The notes below the pieces were generated by a model. That model was not told the origin of the DNA and did not search any database. It worked only from the letters and a program-made list of their open reading frames with translations. Positions 38,959 through 50,900 of a stretch of 64,000 bases of DNA are shown here, one piece after another; position 1 is the stretch's first letter, and each line of letters starts with the position of its first letter. The position numbers and the translations under genes were made by a program. This DNA comes from the human T2T-CHM13v2.0 reference genome, Homo sapiens, in the NCBI RefSeq assembly GCF_009914755.1, contig NC_060940.1, one strand, 5' to 3'.

Positions 38959-41900
38959 ATGGGCGCCTGGGCCTTCCCCGCAGCCCTTTTCCTTCTCTGC
39001 CTGACTTCCGAGAGCCTGCAAGGTGGTGAGGGCAGCTTGGGGCTGGGGGTTGGAGAATGGGCATCTGTGACTGGGGCTGGGGGTCCAAGTGGGGCCCTGG
39101 CCAGATGCTGGGGTTCTGGAGACAAGGAGGGCTGGGGTGTGGAAAGCCTGGTCTGGGCAGAGAATTCAGACAGTGAGGGTTTTTGGGGGCTGGAGGATAG
39201 ATGCCTGGGCGCTGCCCCATCTCAGCCTCTGGGGTCCCCAGCCTTGAGTCAGCACTGTCTTGCTTCCGCAGGGCTGCCCCTTCTGCCTCCTGGCCTGGGG
39301 AAAGGTAGGTGGGCCCTCTGGCACTGGGGTCAGGAAGAGTCTCCCATCTCTCCTGCCCTGGGGGTGTGGGAGCTCTCTGGGACTCCCGATGCGGGGCCCA
39401 GGAGAGCTCAGGGCCCTTGCTGTCTTCCGGGCAGGGAGTCTCATCAAGTGTCCACTCAAGGGTGGGGAGCACAGACACCCTGCACTCTCAGAAGAGTCTC
39501 CCGGGGCAGAACATGCAGCCCTGAGGACGGGCCTGGGCAGGCTGAGAAGGGTGGGCAGGTGTGACAGGAGGGGCGGACCCACCGGCAGGCCAAAGGGGGC
39601 CGGAGGGGGAGAGGAGGGAGGGGACAAGGAGAACTGAGCCTGCTGAGGGGCAGGAGGTGGAGTGTCATGGAAGAGTCTTTACTTCAGGCACCTGGGGGGT
39701 CCTAAGGGTAGGAGGAGGGGCTGCCCCTGAGCCCTGATGCATCTGAGCTTCAGGAGAGAAAGATGGGGGGCAGAGGTGGTGAGAAGAAGAGGAGGAGATT
39801 TCCATGAAGGGAGAGGAGCCCAGTACTGAGAATGGATGGGAGAGGAGAGGAAGAGGGTGGAGTGGGCTCTGCCCCACAGTCCCCCAGAGCCCTGGCTCAG
39901 ACACCTTCCTCCAGGCCCAGGGGCCCTCTAGCCTCCACTGCCCTAGCCCCAGACTGCTCACCTCCTCTGCCCTCTACCCTCCTGTGACAGCAGGGAAACT
40001 GAGACCTGGAAAGGGAGGTGGCATCCAGATTTGGGCCCCTTTGTCCCCTTGTAAGTTCCCCTGCTTCCCCCTGAACCCCACAGGCTTAGGGAGCCCAAAT
40101 GGCTACAGATCTGGTAAAGCTGGTGGCGGGGTGCTTGGGGAGGGTGGCACACCGGCTCCCAGCTGCTCCAGCACCCCGGGCTCAACATCTCACTTCTCCC
40201 ACAGTCTATGGCCCCCACAGTGGCCTGGGAGCAGGTGAGGCCTGGCATAGGGAAGGGAGGCGTCTGAGGGCAGGGCACGGGGCAGGGGGGAGGCAGGACA
40301 GGAACAGGGAAAGCTGGGCGGGGGGCAGGTAAAGGGGGAAGCAGTCGTCTCAGAAATACATGGGGACAGAGCATAGCCCCAGAGTGTCCCCCAGGCACCC
40401 TGGCTGGGGAGAGGGGAAGGCAGGCAGGAAGAAATGGAGCGGGGAGGGAAGAAAGGAAAGAGAGCAGAAAGGAAGGAGAGAGGGAAGGAGGGAGGGAAGG
40501 AGGCTGAAAGCACCCACCTGTGCCCCACAGCCCTCCCCCCTCATGGGAAGGGACTGAGTTCCCACAGGCCCACTGCTTGGATAGGCTGTGGGCCAGGTGT
40601 GGGGCTCTGGGGAGATCCTGGGGGAGGGGTGTCCCTCACCTCCCTGTCTCTCCAGGCTATGATGGGGGCGTGAAGCCACAGAAGCCAGGTGAGCCCTGCC
40701 CCGGCCCCAGCTCTTTGTCTCCCCCTCTTTCTCTCACACTCCTCACCTCACCTCATCTGTCTCTCCAGGATTCGTGGTCAGGCATGGGCTGGGAACCCAG
40801 CCAGGTGAGAGCCGTGGGGTCCCCTCCTTCCCTCCCTCCCAGGCCTCAGACGGAAGAGGCAGGATTGGAGAGATTGTTGGGGGGAGGCGCAGAGAGCCTC
40901 TCAGGTTTGCTGGTGTCTGGCTTAGTCCAAGGGGGGGTTCAAGGGTCTTGTACCCCCACCTCAGCTGGGACCCCAAACCTCCTCAGCTCACCTCTCTCTC
41001 TCCCACGAGCCCTTCCACTAAGAATGGCTATGGAGCAGGTAGAGATGGGAGTGGGGGAGCTGGAAGCCAGGATTCTAGGGGTATCCCTGGGATGGGGATT
41101 CCTGAGCCCCTCATCTGATCCCCCTCTCTTTCCCAGACACTGAAGGGGGCATGAAACCCCAAAACCTAGGTGAGGCTCGCCCAGCCCCTGCCTGCCTCCC
41201 TCCTCCTGACTCCCTCCTGCCTTCTCGCCCCAGGGTTCAGGACCTTCGCAGGTGCTGCAGCCCAGCCAGGTGAGGCTGGGGGAAGCGGGTAAGGAATGGG
41301 AGGGGCTTGGGGGTGCCTAATCTTTGCCTGATACTGTGGGGGAGGGAATGCAGCCAGATCGGTGTTTCCAGGGTCTTCTCCAGGCTCCCAGGCCTCAGAG
41401 AGGGCAGAACAGGTGGGTGTCTCACGGGAAGTGGGCAGGAGGGGACGGTGAGGAGTTCTGATGTCTGGCTTGGTAAGGGGACAGGGGCACCTGGGCCTCA
41501 CCCCTGCCTCAGCTCGGTGTGGCTGTGGAGCAGGGAGCCCAGGGCGGGGAGGTGGGGCCCCTTCATCTGCCCATCTCTCTTCCCAGGCTTTGGAGGGGCT
41601 GAGAAGCCCCAGAAGCCAGAGGCGAGGCCGCCCCACACCTGTCCCAGTGTCCACTTCCCACCCTCTGTCTCTGTCTCTGCTTGACGCCCCATTCCCCCTC
41701 CTCATGTCCCTCTGGCTCTGTCTCCCCAGGATATGGAAACGGGCTGGGAGCAGCGGCCTTCCCAGTGGCCGGAGCCCAGTCAGGTGAGGAAACGTCGGGT
41801 GTGGCAGGACCTGGGCTTCCAGGAGGGAGGGGGAAGGGGCAGAGCAGAGTCAGGGCACCAGGAGCTGGGAGAGCTGGGCTCTGGAGGGAGGGCAGGGCTC

Positions 41901-47900: not shown

Positions 47901-50900
47901 TCCCTGTCTCCCTCCCAGGCCTCCAGAGCAGGTGGACACCAAAATGAGGGAGGAGAGGTGGCGCCAGGATCCCTGGTTTCTGACTTGGCTCTGAAAGGGG
48001 ATCCAAAGGCCCTTCGCCCTCTCCTTAGCTAGAATCCCAAACCCCCTGCTCACCCCTCCCTCCCCACAGGCCCCTTAGCCCAGAATGGCTACAGAGCAGG
48101 TACTGGGGGGCTGGAGTTGCTGGGAGTGCAGAAAGGAGGAAAGAGGTGGGGGCCTGGCTCTCCCCTGACCCTGTACTGAGGGTTTTCTTGGGGGCTCCTG
48201 CAGCCTTAGACGGGGTAGAGTCTGGAGAGGAGGCGGCACAAGGGGGAGGGAGGTGCTGGGAGCTCCAGTTCCTAAATTGGGAGGAAAGGGGGGCCAGGCT
48301 CCAGCCCCCTTCTGTACCCCAACCTCTCCCCATGCCGCCCCCACAGACCCTGCAGTTCCCACTGGTCATGGACCAGGAAGGGGAGGTTGGCATGGGCACC
48401 AGGTGGGGGACAGATGCCAGGTCTGGAAGAGACCCCTCAGTGAGGAGTGGGCATGGGTCCCTCACCTACTCGCATCTCTCCAGGTGCTGGAGAGGGCATG
48501 AAACCTCAGAAGCCAGGTAAGCCCTTCCCACTCCTCACTCTCCCTACCTGCAGAAACTGCCTACCCCTCCACCCTTTTCCCCTCCCAAGCTGTACCCTGT
48601 CTCCCCATGGTGCAAGAACGGGCTGGAGCTGGAGCCTTCCTGTGGGAAGGAGCCCAGCCAGGTGAGGGAGGTGGGTGGGACCTGGAGCAGAGGGGAAGGA
48701 GGACAGGCTCCAACGGACAGAGTTGGGTCTCAGTGGGGGAAGGGGTGGGGTGGGGTGGGCCTGTCCATTATTCTCCATGGGTCTCTGGCCTGGGAGAGAG
48801 CCAGAAACCTCCAAAGCCGAGTTGCTCTCTGCCCCTCTTCCTGCCTTCTCCAAGGTCCCCCACTCCAACCCCGCCCTCATGCCCTGCTCTCCCTCCCAGG
48901 ATACACACCAGGGACCTGGCTGGGGCTCCTGCCAGGTGAAAAGACGGGGCTAGGGGGATCAGCAGGGGAGAGAGGGGTTCACTACACTCCTCGGGTGGGC
49001 TGATGTCTGAACTGGCCTCTTTCTGTCTCTCCCCAGGCCTGCGAGGGACCTTGAAGCCTCAGAAGTCAGGCGAGTGGGGGACCCCTGGCTCTGCCCCACA
49101 CCTCCTTCTGCCTCTCAGCCCTTCTAGCCTCTGCCCCCAGTGTTGCCACACTCATCTCTGCTTTCCCTCTCCAGGACACGGCCATGAAAATGGGCCCTGG
49201 CCAGGTGAGGCCACTGGGACCAGGGGTGGGGGCCCAGGAGGAAGGGAGAGGGAGGCTGCTGGAAGACGGAGGGGCCTCCATCAGGAGCCCCATCCCTGCC
49301 AGATCCCTACATCCCTCTATCCCCTGCCTGGATCCCCAGGTCCCCCCAGGAGAGTGTGGACCAAGGGAGCTGGGCTTTTTCCAGCCTGGCTAATGTCCCC
49401 CTAAGGTGCTGGGTCTGCCCTAGAAGCCACTACAGGCCGGTGGCTTGGCCAGGCCAAGGCCTCCTGGGTGGCGTCGGTGAGGACTGGCCTGGAGCATAGC
49501 CCCACCCCTCCCTTCCTTCCCATCGTAGGTCCCTGCAATGCGAGGGTCGCTCCGATGCTCCTCCCCAGGCTTCCCACTCCAGGGGTCCCTTCGGACAAAG
49601 AGGGTGGCTGGGGCCTGAAATCCCAGCCCCCTTCCGCAGTGCAGAATGGCAAGTTACCAGGTCAGTGTGGAGTGGGGGTGCCTAGGGGGCACTGGGAAGC
49701 ACCTGGCCCTATGAGGGTCAGGGCCTGGCTGCCATATCCCACTCTGTCCTCGGATGCCAAGGCTCAGAGAGGGCAGTGACTTGTCACACAGTGATCTGCT
49801 GAGGAGAAGCCTGAACTCTGGCCCTGGGACCCCATGTGGTCCCCAGTATGGGAGTCCTTTCCATCCCTGCCCCATGGCATCTGCAGTCTCTCAAGCCCTC
49901 GGCTGGGCTCACTCCTGCCCCTAACCTTCCTCCTAGCACCAATGCCAGCCATCCAGTGGGGACTGAAACCTCAGAAAGCAGGTGTGAGTCTGTCTGCCCC
50001 CAGGCCCCACATCCCAGAGGGACAAACTCTCAGCTAGGTCTATCCTCTGTCTCCACCCCAGATCAGGGTCACCCCTCCATCACCCTTTTTCCCTAGGCTG
50101 CCTCAGCTATTCAGGCACCCGAAGGCCAGGAAGTCCCTCCCCGAGTCTACCCTCTTGCTCTTTTTTTTTTTTTTTTTTTTTTTTGAGACAGTCTCGCTCT
50201 GTCGCCCAGGCTGGAATGCAGTGGTGCAATTTTGGCTCACTGCAAAATACGCCTCCCAAGTAGTTGGCATTACAGGCACGCACCACCATACCTGGCTAAT
50301 CTTTGTATTTTTGTAGAGTCGGGGTTTTGTCACATTGGACAGGCTGGTCTCAAACTCCTGGCTTCAAGTGATCAGCCCACCTCAGCCTCCCAAAGTGCTG
50401 GGATTACAGGCGTGAGCCACTGCGCCCAGTCTCTTGCTGCTCTCCAGATTTCTTCTGGTTCCATTCCCTGTGGACAGGAAAAGTCTCTGCTTCCCCTTCA
50501 GAGTCCCTAAGGTCGATCTTTGGCCTCCAAGGAGTCAGGGGAGACCTGGGTCCCCCGCACTGACTTCCTTTCTCCTCACAGGGCACCAGCCTCCAAATGG
50601 CTATGGACCGGGAGCAGAACCAGGTGAGGAGGCCCTTCCTGGAGTTCCTCCCCTCCCTTCCCTTCCTCTTCCCTCCTCTTCCTTCTGCCATCCCAGGAAG
50701 AGGGGAGGCCAGGGCTGTGGCTCTCGCTGACCCCCATCTCTGAGTCACAGTTTTCTCTCCCCCAGGTTTTAATGGTGGCCTCGAGCCACAGAAAATTGGT
50801 GAGTCCTCCTGCGCCCCCGACCCATGTTGAGCGGAAGCTGGCATCTCCCTCATGCCTGAGTCAGTCTGTCTGTCCGCATCCCCCTGTCTATGAGCTGGTC

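What the first reader, a model, noticed from the sequence alone, without database searches (positions are those of the whole stretch)
41009..50129. About a dozen fossil exons inactivated by splice-site lesions within GREP1
Seen: module-shaped segments with repeat-type peptide but a broken splice site. 41009-41038 [10 protein letters not shown] (AG>GA); 41587-41619 [11 protein letters not shown] (no GT); 42240-about 42268 GLGKREPQK (no GT); 42668-42700 [11 protein letters not shown] (AG>TG); 42794-42853 [20 protein letters not shown] (AG>AA); 43749-43808 (AG>GG); 45832-45861 [10 protein letters not shown] (AG>AA); about 47849-47879 (both sites damaged); 48347-48376 (GT>GA); 48609-48661 (AG>AT plus frameshift); 48788-48820 [11 protein letters not shown] (AG>TG); 50097-50129 (GT>GA). 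Inference: symmetric exons can be lost one at a time without frameshift, so the human protein is a shortened version of a longer ancestor, comparable to primate exon loss in ELN.
Basis: partly seen in the sequence, partly recalled or inferred. Interest (0 to 1): 0.75.

Follow-up and report, generated by a model that had tools for sequence, protein, structure and literature searches.

The report
Dead exons inside human GREP1
Eleven short stretches in the introns of the human GREP1 gene are former coding exons, still used in other mammals, that were switched off by small splice-site mutations, so the human matrix protein is a trimmed version of a longer ancestral one.

Summary
All 12 segments sit at the stated coordinates with the stated splice lesions. 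Eleven are real decayed exons. Eight match exon-only profiles built from live GREP1 exons at 7.4 bits or more. Several share intron sequence with live exons. All have acceptor-type pyrimidine tracts. Predicted GREP1 proteins of other mammals carry matching modules in the same order as the human genome. None of 17 catarrhine proteins contains a fossil, except two predicted human isoforms that read c4 and c5 through an alternative first exon. Marmoset models keep c1. The one lemur model keeps c1, c4, c5 and c10. Colugo, rodents, rabbits, carnivores, bats and ungulates keep most of the rest. The loss therefore looks stepwise along the primate lineage and is not human-specific. Segment 50097-50129 (c12) has no profile hit, no paralogue and no orthologue, and is not supported. 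The best ELN analogue is exon 22, which is silenced in place by an acceptor mutation. ELN exons 34 and 35 were deleted from the genome instead. The orthologue evidence rests on predicted proteins. No non-human DNA or RNA-seq was available. My searches listed no paper on this.

The parts
38944..52691 (+). GREP1 gene. It is an array of 30-60 nt phase 1-1 exons of four recurring types: 30 nt ..QNGYG., 33 nt ..KPQKP, 36 nt ..GLGAQP, and 54/60 nt ..[12 protein letters not shown].
   Evidence: Annotation supplied with the finding; all internal exons follow AG, and 26 of 27 are followed by GT (1 GC); the CDS is 1245 nt, 414 aa, 23.6% Gly, and 27 of 27 internal exons are multiples of 3.
41009..41038 (+). 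c1: fossil 30-nt exon with acceptor AG>GA. An AG shifted by +1 remains and would give a 29-nt exon.
   Evidence: Profile 11.8 bits. About 100 nt of upstream intron is shared with 45832 and 48070. Marmoset isoforms X14 and X15 carry GPSTQIGYGA followed by the 41137-type module, and lemur carries GPSAQNGYRA. Slot rank is 1 of 41, tied. The non-primate presence call is not specific.
41587..41619 (+). c2: fossil 33-nt Lys exon with the donor GT lost (CCAG|aggcgagg).
   Evidence: Profile 23.8 bits. The block 41572-41739 is paralogous to 43599-43758. Exactly one such module lies between the two flanking anchors in Mustela, Enhydra, Mirounga, Myotis and Eptesicus, and none in 6 primate proteins. Counterparts occur in 17 of 30 species against a decoy mean of 7.5. 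Slot rank is 2 of 41.
42240..42268 (+). c3: fossil Lys exon, shortened to 29 nt, with no donor.
   Evidence: Profile only 5.7 bits. There is one paralogous hit with flanks at 49015-49085, 75% identity. Colugo, Myotis and Pteropus have a Lys module right after the 42060-type exon. Counterparts occur in 4 of 30 species against a decoy mean of 0.6. Slot rank is only 21 of 41. This is the weakest of the accepted eleven.
42668..42700 (+). c4: fossil 33-nt Lys exon with acceptor AG>TG. It holds the ATG of predicted isoforms X3 and X11.
   Evidence: Profile 12.8 bits. Lemur has a Lys module and a long Gly module exactly between the 42060-type and 43085-type anchors. Slot rank is 3 of 41. The decoy control is weak, 5 against 2.8. 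P0001 and P0002 begin [10 protein letters not shown].
42794..42853 (+). c5: fossil 60-nt exon with acceptor AG>AA. Its donor is intact and is used by the alternative first exon 42559-42853.
   Evidence: Profile 27.3 bits. Lemur, bats, mouse and pigs show counterparts. Slot rank is 3 of 41. The decoy control is not specific, 8 against 6.4.
43749..43808 (+). c6: fossil 60-nt exon with acceptor AG>GG.
   Evidence: Profile 20.8 bits. It shows reciprocal paralogy with the live exon 41730, while its neighbour, live exon 43613, pairs with dead c2. Rodents, mustelids and bats have the module after the 43613-type exon. Slot rank is 1 of 41. Counterparts occur in 13 of 30 species against a decoy mean of 2.2.
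45832..45861 (+). c7: fossil 30-nt exon with acceptor AG>AA. A +1 AG remains.
   Evidence: Profile 11.0 bits. Paralogy extends into the introns. Slot rank is 1 of 41. Counterparts occur in 17 of 30 species against a decoy mean of 3.1. It is absent from all 23 primate proteins.
47849..47879 (+). c8: fossil copy of the 36-nt exon type. It is 31 nt long, its acceptor is CG, and its donor is displaced by a 1-nt loss.
   Evidence: The block 47719-47887 is 80% identical to 45473-45653, including the whole intron. The donor-phase reading resembles the GLGAQP type. Sloth, Kogia, mustelids and raccoon dog have a module at this place. Slot rank is 12 of 41. The decoy control is weak, 4 against 2.1.
48347..48376 (+). 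c9: fossil 30-nt exon with donor GT>GA.
   Evidence: Profile only 4.3 bits, but the peptide is distinctive. The best local score among 133 proteins is 45, against a maximum of 38 for 20 shuffled queries. The P.VP..YGP module lies directly before the GEG-Lys exon in carnivores, Pteropus, Kogia, Capra and Diceros. A motif search found it in 26 of 66 non-primate proteins and 0 of 16 catarrhine proteins.
48609..48661 (+). c10: fossil 54-nt-type exon with acceptor AG>AT and a 1-nt deletion.
   Evidence: Profile 13.8 bits. After the gap, the shifted frame reads [11 protein letters not shown]. Lemur, rabbits, carnivores, Kogia, Capra and Diceros have the module between the 48484-type and 48788-type exons. 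Counterparts occur in 8 of 30 species against a decoy mean of 0.6. Slot rank is 2 of 41.
48788..48820 (+). c11: fossil 33-nt Lys exon with acceptor AG>TG and an altered donor context (..CCGA|gt).
   Evidence: Profile only 2.5 bits. A ..S/KPPKP module precedes the GY.PG..LP exon in rabbits, carnivores, bats, Kogia and Capra. Slot rank is 1 of 41. Counterparts occur in 14 of 30 species against a decoy mean of 3.6.
50097..50129 (+). c12: not supported as a fossil repeat exon.
   Evidence: The AG and a strong pyrimidine tract (0.91) are real, and the donor is GA. However, there is no profile hit. The only blastn matches of this query (the segment with 130 nt on each side) lie in the neighbouring Alu. 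The best local score among 133 proteins is 27, below the shuffled mean of 29.6. It was called present in none of the 121 proteins examined and in 0 of 30 species.
43943..43975 (+). It is a 33-nt Lys-type module with AG and a GC donor, and it is unannotated in human.
   Evidence: 9.9 bits. Marmoset (3 isoforms), lemur, colugo, rodents and bats have a module here. The live exon 49037 also uses a GC donor, so it is uncertain whether this piece is dead.
47626..47655 (+). It is a 30-nt exon with donor GT>GA, and the outcome is intron retention rather than skipping.
   Evidence: the RefSeq alternative exon 47626-47766 is 141 nt (30 + a 78-nt intron + 33) and is open in frame. The read-through peptide is present in human isoform 3 and X3, Pan, Pongo, Nomascus, Old World monkeys, marmoset and Saimiri.

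Best explanation
GREP1 is built from many very short exons of 30 to 60 nt. All are in phase 1-1, and each encodes one glycine-rich module or one lysine-bearing K-P-Q-K-P module. This array already existed in the common ancestor of placental mammals. On the lineage leading to humans, at least eleven of these exons were switched off where they lie. The cause was a point change in the acceptor AG or the donor GT, and in three cases small insertions or deletions followed.

Because every exon is a multiple of three in the same phase, the spliceosome can skip a dead exon and the reading frame is kept. The protein simply loses one module. The dead exons remain in the introns as recognisable fossils.

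What is shown here: the lesions, the homology to live exons, and matching modules in the same order in predicted proteins of other mammals.

What is inferred: that each lesion caused the skipping rather than following an earlier loss of inclusion, and the timing. On present sampling, c1 was lost after the split from New World monkeys. c4, c5 and c10 were lost after the split from lemurs. The others were lost earlier or at an unknown time.
For: (1) The lesions and intact live sites are confirmed. All 27 internal exons are symmetric.

(2) Eight of 12 segments match exon-body-only profiles at 7.4 bits or more. Only 5 such hits occur in the rest of the window on both strands plus the GREP1 minus strand.

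(3) Paralogy extends into introns. 47608-47887 matches 45361-45653 at 80%. c1, c7 and 48070 share about 100 nt of upstream intron. The unit of dead c2 plus live 41730 pairs with the unit of live 43613 plus dead c6, which is a reciprocal loss.

(4) Pyrimidine tracts of the fossils are 0.70-0.91, against a mean of 0.47 at random intron positions.

(5) Orthologues: 133 mammalian GREP1 proteins were collected. I removed each fossil peptide and re-inserted it at each of 41 slots of the human module order. I scored each arrangement against 30 non-primate species. The true slot ranked 1, 2, 3, 3, 1, 1, 3, 2 and 1 for c1, c2, c4, c5, c6, c7, c9, c10 and c11.

(6) Anchored on the unique exon 49529, carnivores, Kogia and rabbits show the modules for c8, c9, 48484, c10, c11 and 48900 in exactly the human genomic order.

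(7) Thirty non-primate proteins show almost no module-sized insertions relative to the human catalogue once fossils are included. Only 2 places recur in 3 or more species, and both look like intron read-through.

(8) Among primates, none of 17 catarrhine proteins holds a fossil apart from c4 and c5 in human X3 and X11. Marmoset X14 and X15 hold c1. Lemur holds c1, c4, c5 and c10.
Against: (a) All orthologue evidence comes from predicted protein models (Gnomon, Ensembl) clustered at 90% identity. I saw no genomic DNA of another species, so no orthologous AG or GT was read directly.

(b) The modules are repetitive. In the decoy control, the per-module presence call was no better at the true slot than at wrong slots for c1 (5 against a mean of 6.2) and c5 (8 against 6.4). 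It was only slightly better for c4 (5 against 2.8) and c8 (4 against 2.1). For these four, the case rests on the slot scores and on anchored strings in lemur, marmoset, bats and sloth.

(c) c3 and c8 ranked 21 and 12 of 41 in the slot test, with negative score gains.

(d) The calling procedure gave two false positives in human proteins, c9 and c11, through misalignment.

(e) Absence from a primate model is not proof of a lesion in that species. Only one strepsirrhine protein was available.

(f) Exclusion from human mRNA rests on the annotation table. One exon of another transcript is not listed there, and c4 and c5 lie within an annotated alternative first exon.
Confidence: 0.85

Rival explanations
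1. The segments are copies that were never used. They were duplicated already broken, or they broke at once, so no ancestral protein was ever longer.
For: c1 and c7 belong to one paralogous subfamily and both have A at position -1 of the acceptor. That could suggest an inherited lesion. The gene clearly grew by duplicating multi-exon units.
Against: Each of the eleven has a counterpart module at the collinear place in predicted proteins of other orders. c1 itself is in marmoset and lemur models, whereas c7 is in none of the 23 primate proteins examined, so the two were lost separately. The paralogous units differ by 20-32% even in introns. From my own knowledge of neutral rates, not computed here, that divergence implies duplications predating the placental radiation.
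Confidence: 0.04
2. The resemblance is chance. GC-rich, G-rich introns translate into glycine-rich peptides, and a reader looking for modules will find some.
For: This fits c12, which has no profile hit, no paralogue and an orthologue score below the shuffled controls. My tblastn of orthologues against the window hit G/P-rich DNA everywhere, including outside GREP1. That shows how easily such matches arise.
Against: For the other eleven there is profile enrichment, homology reaching into introns, pyrimidine tracts, true-slot ranks and decoy controls.
Confidence: 0.03
3. The segments are not dead. They still reach mRNA through cryptic or non-canonical sites or alternative transcript starts.
For: The alternative first exon 42559-42853 covers c4 and c5, and predicted isoforms X3 and X11 translate them. 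c1, c5 and c7 keep an AG one base downstream. 47626-47655 lost its donor but survives by in-frame intron retention. One exon of another transcript is not listed in the annotation given.
Against: A +1 AG gives 29- or 59-nt exons and a frameshift. Of the 12 other-transcript exons that the table lists out of 13, only 42559-42853 overlaps a fossil. Isoforms X3 and X11 lack the signal-peptide exon, so they would not give the secreted protein. That last point is an inference. None of the 3 human proteins retrieved, nor the other 14 catarrhine proteins, contains c1-c3 or c6-c12.
Confidence: 0.08

Closest known systems
Human tropoelastin (ELN) exon 22
   Same: The exon is still present in the genome of a modular matrix-protein gene with symmetric exons. 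It is skipped, probably because a human mutation abolished a viable acceptor site, and the frame is kept. Other primates retain high-probability sites (PMC12554196, section 7.3, passages read).
   Different: ELN has one such exon and the lesion is human-specific. GREP1 has at least eleven. They carry both acceptor and donor lesions plus later indels, and on the protein-model evidence they are shared by all catarrhines or are older.
Loss of ELN exons 34 and 35 in great apes
   Same: Exons were lost from a repetitive extracellular-matrix gene during primate evolution without a frameshift.
   Different: Those two exons are absent from the genomic sequence, which has been attributed to Alu-rich DNA (PMC12554196, section 7.2). 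The GREP1 fossils are still in place and were silenced by point lesions. Alus are present in GREP1 introns (44030-45212, 46620-46915, 50155-50435), but they did not remove these exons.
GREP1 as described by Prensner and colleagues (bioRxiv 10.1101/2020.03.10.981001)
   Same: It is the same gene: a secreted glycine-rich extracellular protein. LINC00514 was a fragment of it. The authors made an evolutionary comparison by percent similarity to homologues (passages read).
   Different: In the passages I read there is nothing about exon-level loss or pseudo-exons. I did not read the whole text, its figures or its supplements.

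Membership tests
In-situ fossil (dead) exon, ELN exon 22 type | The sequence is homologous to functional exons. | tested here: met
   Exon-only profiles scored 8 of 12 segments at 7.4 bits or more. Paralogy extends into the introns. c12 fails.
In-situ fossil (dead) exon, ELN exon 22 type | The orthologous exon is part of the coding sequence in other species. 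| tested here: met
   Predicted proteins only. The support is strong for c2, c6, c7, c9, c10 and c11. For c1, c4 and c5 it rests on anchored strings in marmoset and lemur. It is weaker for c3 and c8. There is none for c12.
In-situ fossil (dead) exon, ELN exon 22 type | The canonical AG or GT is destroyed in the species in question. | tested here: met
   12 of 12 segments lack AG or GT at the module boundary. All 27 live internal exons have AG, and 26 have GT with 1 GC.
In-situ fossil (dead) exon, ELN exon 22 type | The segment is excluded from mature mRNA in this species. | not testable with these tools
   Only the annotation table was available. None of the 12 listed other-transcript exons overlaps a fossil except 42559-42853 (c4, c5), and one exon is unlisted. 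No RNA-seq was on hand.
Exon loss by genomic deletion (ELN exons 34/35 type) | The exon sequence is absent from the genome. | tested here: not met
   The sequences are present, so this is not that type.
Elastin-like modular matrix protein (a resemblance in how it works, not a claim of family membership) | Glycine-rich hydrophobic exons alternate with lysine-bearing exons, all in one phase. | tested here: inconclusive
   The exon order alternates Lys-type 33-nt exons with Gly-rich exons, all in phase 1-1. Some databases auto-name orthologues 'elastin-like'. No Pfam domain is listed for any hit except two pig PAQR4 fusion models. I made no comparison with elastin sequences, and cross-linking is untested.

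The most novel reading that the evidence does not exclude
GREP1 may be an elastin-like matrix protein that has been progressively trimmed along the primate lineage. About a quarter of its ancestral modules, lysine-bearing ones among them, were silenced one at a time by point lesions. The stages can be dated: c1 in catarrhines, and c4, c5 and c10 after the lemur split. This would make GREP1 a natural series of graded truncations. It would reflect either adaptive retuning of a cartilage or disc matrix component or a slow slide of the gene towards loss in primates.
Probability: 0.3. Interest if true: 0.65.

Novelty: new member of a known kind. Interest (0 to 1): 0.55.

Why it matters
GREP1 was recognised as a protein-coding gene only recently, and its biology is barely known. 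It is secreted and is a dependency in breast-cancer cell lines. Mouse Grep1 is expressed specifically in the inner annulus fibrosus.

If the human protein lacks about eleven modules that mouse, dog or bat proteins still carry, mouse models and cross-species comparisons of GREP1 are not like for like. The gene also offers an unusually rich, datable example of exon death by splice-site decay in a modular matrix protein. ELN offers a single comparable case.

For annotation, the fossils explain why gene predictors produce so many conflicting GREP1 isoforms. They also flag places where a single variant could re-create an exon.

Tried and rejected
(1) I ran tblastn of 30 non-primate proteins against the window, gapped and ungapped. 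The gapped HSPs ran through introns. The ungapped HSPs hit G/P-rich DNA all over the window: 5240 on the GREP1 plus strand and 5591 elsewhere. I judged this too noisy and drew no inference from it.

(2) The first global alignment used wrong coordinates for the unannotated exon near 49935. It was corrected to 49937-49981 from then on. The output was also cut.

(3) The slot-test script crashed at c12 after printing c1-c11. c12 was tested instead by local search with shuffled controls and by the decoy test.

(4) The per-module presence counts turned out to be only partly specific when calibrated with decoy slots. I therefore do not use them alone for c1, c4, c5 or c8.

(5) Motif counts: the c11-type and 48900-type patterns were too loose, and the c11-type pattern matched 4 catarrhine proteins through another exon. 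The single lemur match of the c9-type pattern falls on a different module, as read. Only the c9-type and c10-type counts for non-primates and catarrhines are used.

(6) The third protein search, with the lemur protein as query, was meant to find more strepsirrhines or a tarsier. It found none and added only a second Saimiri protein and a few non-primates.

(8) I considered and rejected the idea that the shared A at -1 in c1 and c7 is one inherited lesion. c1 is live in marmoset and lemur models, and c7 is live in many non-primates.

Full report
**Observation**

I read 38900-52800 and checked every claimed segment with a script.

The live gene has a very regular structure. All 27 internal coding exons of the selected transcript are multiples of three and in phase 1-1. 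Each follows AG, and each is followed by GT, apart from one GC at exon 49037-49069. The spliced CDS is 1245 nt, which encodes 414 aa with 23.6% glycine.

The exons fall into four recurring types:
- 30 nt (..QNGYG.)
- 33 nt with lysines (..KPQKP)
- 36 nt (..GLGAQP)
- 54/60 nt (..[12 protein letters not shown])

The lysine type alternates with the others.

**Is it more than chance?**

I built nhmmer profiles from the bodies of live exons only, so that splice signals could not drive the hits, and scanned the whole window on both strands.
- Eight of the 12 segments scored 7.4 bits or more: c1 11.8, c2 23.8, c4 12.8, c5 27.3, c6 20.8, c7 11.0, c8 7.4, c10 13.8.
- Three were weak: c3 5.7, c9 4.3, c11 2.5.
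- c12 gave no hit.
- Outside the GREP1 plus strand, only five hits reached 7.4 bits.

The upstream pyrimidine fraction is an independent feature. It is 0.70-0.91 for all twelve segments and 0.81 on average for live exons. At 5000 random intron positions the mean is 0.47 and the 95th percentile 0.78.

**Paralogy**

I ran blastn of each segment with 130 nt of flank against the window. It shows that the fossils lie in duplicated multi-exon units whose introns still align.
- 47608-47887 matches 45361-45653 at 80% identity, so c8 is the decayed copy of live exon 45609-45644.
- c1, c7 and the intact segment 48070-48099 share about 100 nt of upstream intron.
- The unit of dead c2 plus live 41730 pairs with the unit of live 43613 plus dead c6. 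This reciprocal pattern is most simply explained by an ancestor in which both exons of the unit were functional.
- For c12, the only matches of the query (segment plus flanks) lay in the adjacent Alu.

**Orthologues**

Three protein searches returned 133 GREP1 proteins. They came from apes, Old and New World monkeys, one lemur, colugo, rodents, rabbits, carnivores, bats, ungulates, cetaceans, afrotherians and xenarthrans. Almost all are predicted models.

I translated every module-like piece of the human locus, whether live, alternative, unannotated or fossil, in genomic order. I then aligned this catalogue globally to the orthologues.

Slot test: with 30 non-primate species, I removed each fossil and re-inserted it at each of 41 slots. 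The true slot ranked as follows.
- c1: 1 (tied)
- c2: 2
- c4: 3
- c5: 3
- c6: 1
- c7: 1
- c9: 3
- c10: 2
- c11: 1
- c3: 21
- c8: 12

Nine of eleven in the top three is far from a uniform expectation.

Insertion check: relative to the human catalogue with fossils included, the 30 proteins show almost no recurrent module-sized insertions. Only two places recur in three or more species, and both look like intron read-through. The human locus therefore still holds remnants of nearly the whole ancestral exon set.

**Calibration and its limits**

The modules are repetitive, so I calibrated the per-module presence call by placing each fossil peptide at eight wrong slots.

The call is clearly better at the true slot for these seven:
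- c2: 17 of 30 species against a decoy mean of 7.5
- c3: 4 against 0.6
- c6: 13 against 2.2
- c7: 17 against 3.1
- c9: 7 against 2.1
- c10: 8 against 0.6
- c11: 14 against 3.6

It is not clearly better for these four:
- c1: 5 against 6.2
- c5: 8 against 6.4
- c4: 5 against 2.8
- c8: 4 against 2.1

c12 scored 0 against 0.2. The procedure also produced two false calls in human proteins, c9 and c11, by misalignment.

For c1, c4, c5 and c8 I therefore rely on anchored strings.
- Marmoset isoforms X14 and X15 carry GPSTQIGYGA, which is 8 of 10 identical to c1. It is followed directly by the 41137-type module with its unusual KPQNL ending.
- The lemur protein has exactly one lysine module and one long glycine module between the distinctive 42060-type and 43085-type exons. 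That is where c4 and c5 lie.
- Sloth has a GFGIQNGLGAQP module before the 48070-type module, where c8 lies.

The clearest view is anchored on the unique exon 49529-49660. Mustela, Enhydra, raccoon dog, cats, Kogia and rabbits show modules for c8, c9, 48484, c10, c11, 48900, 49037 and 49175 in exactly the human genomic order.

A motif for the distinctive c9 type occurs in 26 of 66 non-primate proteins that have the anchor. It occurs in 0 of 16 catarrhine and 0 of 5 New World monkey proteins. The c10 type occurs in 21 of 66, 0 of 16 and 0 of 5. The lemur match to the c9 motif falls on a different module.

c10 carries a 1-nt deletion. Read in the shifted frame, its second half is [11 protein letters not shown], which fits the orthologous modules.

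**Timing**

None of 17 catarrhine proteins (3 human, 6 ape, 8 Old World monkey) contains c1-c3 or c6-c12.
- c1 is in 2 of 5 New World monkey proteins.
- c1, c4, c5 and c10 are in the single lemur protein.
- Colugo has counterparts for c1-c4 and c7.

The loss therefore looks stepwise along the primate stem and is not human-specific. Absence from a model is not proof of a lesion, though, and strepsirrhine sampling is one protein. The third search found no more.

**What is not a fossil, and what was missed**

c12 fails all tests. It keeps an AG and a strong pyrimidine tract, so it may be a chance pseudo-exon or something unrelated to the repeat.

c4 and c5 are not silent on paper. RefSeq's alternative first exon 42559-42853 spans them. 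Predicted isoforms X3 and X11 begin at an ATG inside c4, read through the 93-nt spacer and continue into c5, using c5's intact donor.

- 43943-43975 has a GC donor and has counterparts in marmoset, lemur and others.
- 47626-47655 has donor GT>GA, but it survives because the 78-nt intron is retained in frame in human isoform 3, apes, monkeys and marmoset.
- A 12-nt remnant lies near 42560.
- A degenerate piece lies near 47046.

Four segments with intact AG and GT are not in the selected human transcript but are in other primates' or other mammals' models: 40084-40113, 41137-41169, 48070-48099 and 49937-49981.

**Mechanism**

Shown here: the lesions, the symmetric phase, homology to live exons, and collinear counterparts in other mammals' predicted proteins.

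Inferred: a lesion at AG or GT makes the spliceosome skip the exon, and because all exons are phase 1-1 multiples of three, the frame is kept and one module is dropped. It is also inferred that the lesion was the cause, rather than a consequence of earlier reduced inclusion.

For c1, c5 and c7 the change AG|G to AA|G or GA|G leaves an AG one base downstream. Using that AG would shift the frame.

**Comparison with what is known**

The tropoelastin review PMC12554196 (sections 7.2, 7.3 and 8.4.1, passages read) states two things.
- Exon 22 is present but skipped in humans, probably because a mutation abolished its acceptor.

The GREP1 fossils are of the exon 22 kind, multiplied about elevenfold and older.

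GREP1 itself was described by Prensner and colleagues (bioRxiv 10.1101/2020.03.10.981001, passages read). They made only a percent-similarity comparison with homologues. Mouse Grep1 (1520401A03Rik) is expressed in the inner annulus fibrosus (PMC13082079, passages read).

A search for GREP1 found 30 papers, of which 20 were listed. A search for 'glycine rich extracellular protein', 1520401A03Rik and LINC00514 found 196 papers, of which 25 were listed. Nothing on exon loss in this gene appeared in those listings. I did not read those papers beyond the listings and the passages named.

**Verdict**

This is a new and unusually rich example of a known kind of event. It is of moderate interest. It matters mainly for the comparability of GREP1 across species, and as a datable series of exon deaths.

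Noticed in passing
window 47626-47766: The 30-nt exon 47626-47655 lost its donor (GT>GA). Instead of being skipped, it is joined to exon 47734-47766 by retention of the 78-nt intron, which is open in frame. The read-through peptide is in human isoforms 3 and X3 and in models of Pan, Pongo, Nomascus, Old World monkeys, marmoset and Saimiri. The same kind of lesion therefore had the opposite outcome here.
   Followed up: partly
window 42559-42853: RefSeq's alternative first exon spans fossils c4 and c5. Predicted human isoforms X3 and X11 start at an ATG inside c4 and read through the spacer into c5. They lack the signal-peptide exon.
   Followed up: partly
window 40084-40113, 41137-41169, 48070-48099, 49937-49981: Four module-shaped segments have intact AG and GT but are not in the selected human transcript. 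They are present in protein models of other primates or other mammals. 49937-49981 is widespread in mammals. 48070-48099 differs from other primates by one residue (L for S).
   Followed up: partly
window 43943-43975: A lysine-type module with AG and a GC donor is unannotated in human. Counterparts are in marmoset, lemur, colugo, rodent and bat models. The live exon 49037-49069 also uses a GC donor, so this piece may or may not be dead.
   Followed up: partly
window 42560-42571 and about 47046-47078: Two further remnants were seen. The first is a 12-nt piece with AG and GT where bats and mustelids have a 30-nt-type module. The second is a lysine-type start (GCCTGGGAGGGGG...) that degenerates after 13 nt, just after an Alu.
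   Followed up: no
proteins P0101, P0106 (pig): Two pig UniProt models fuse GREP1-like sequence with the neighbouring gene PAQR4 (Pfam PF03006). This is probably a read-through or a prediction artefact.
   Followed up: no
protein P0075 (mouse isoform X3): The mouse protein contains a block of three modules that occurs twice, identical except for one residue. This suggests a rodent-specific re-duplication, so module number has gone up in some lineages as well as down in primates.
   Followed up: no
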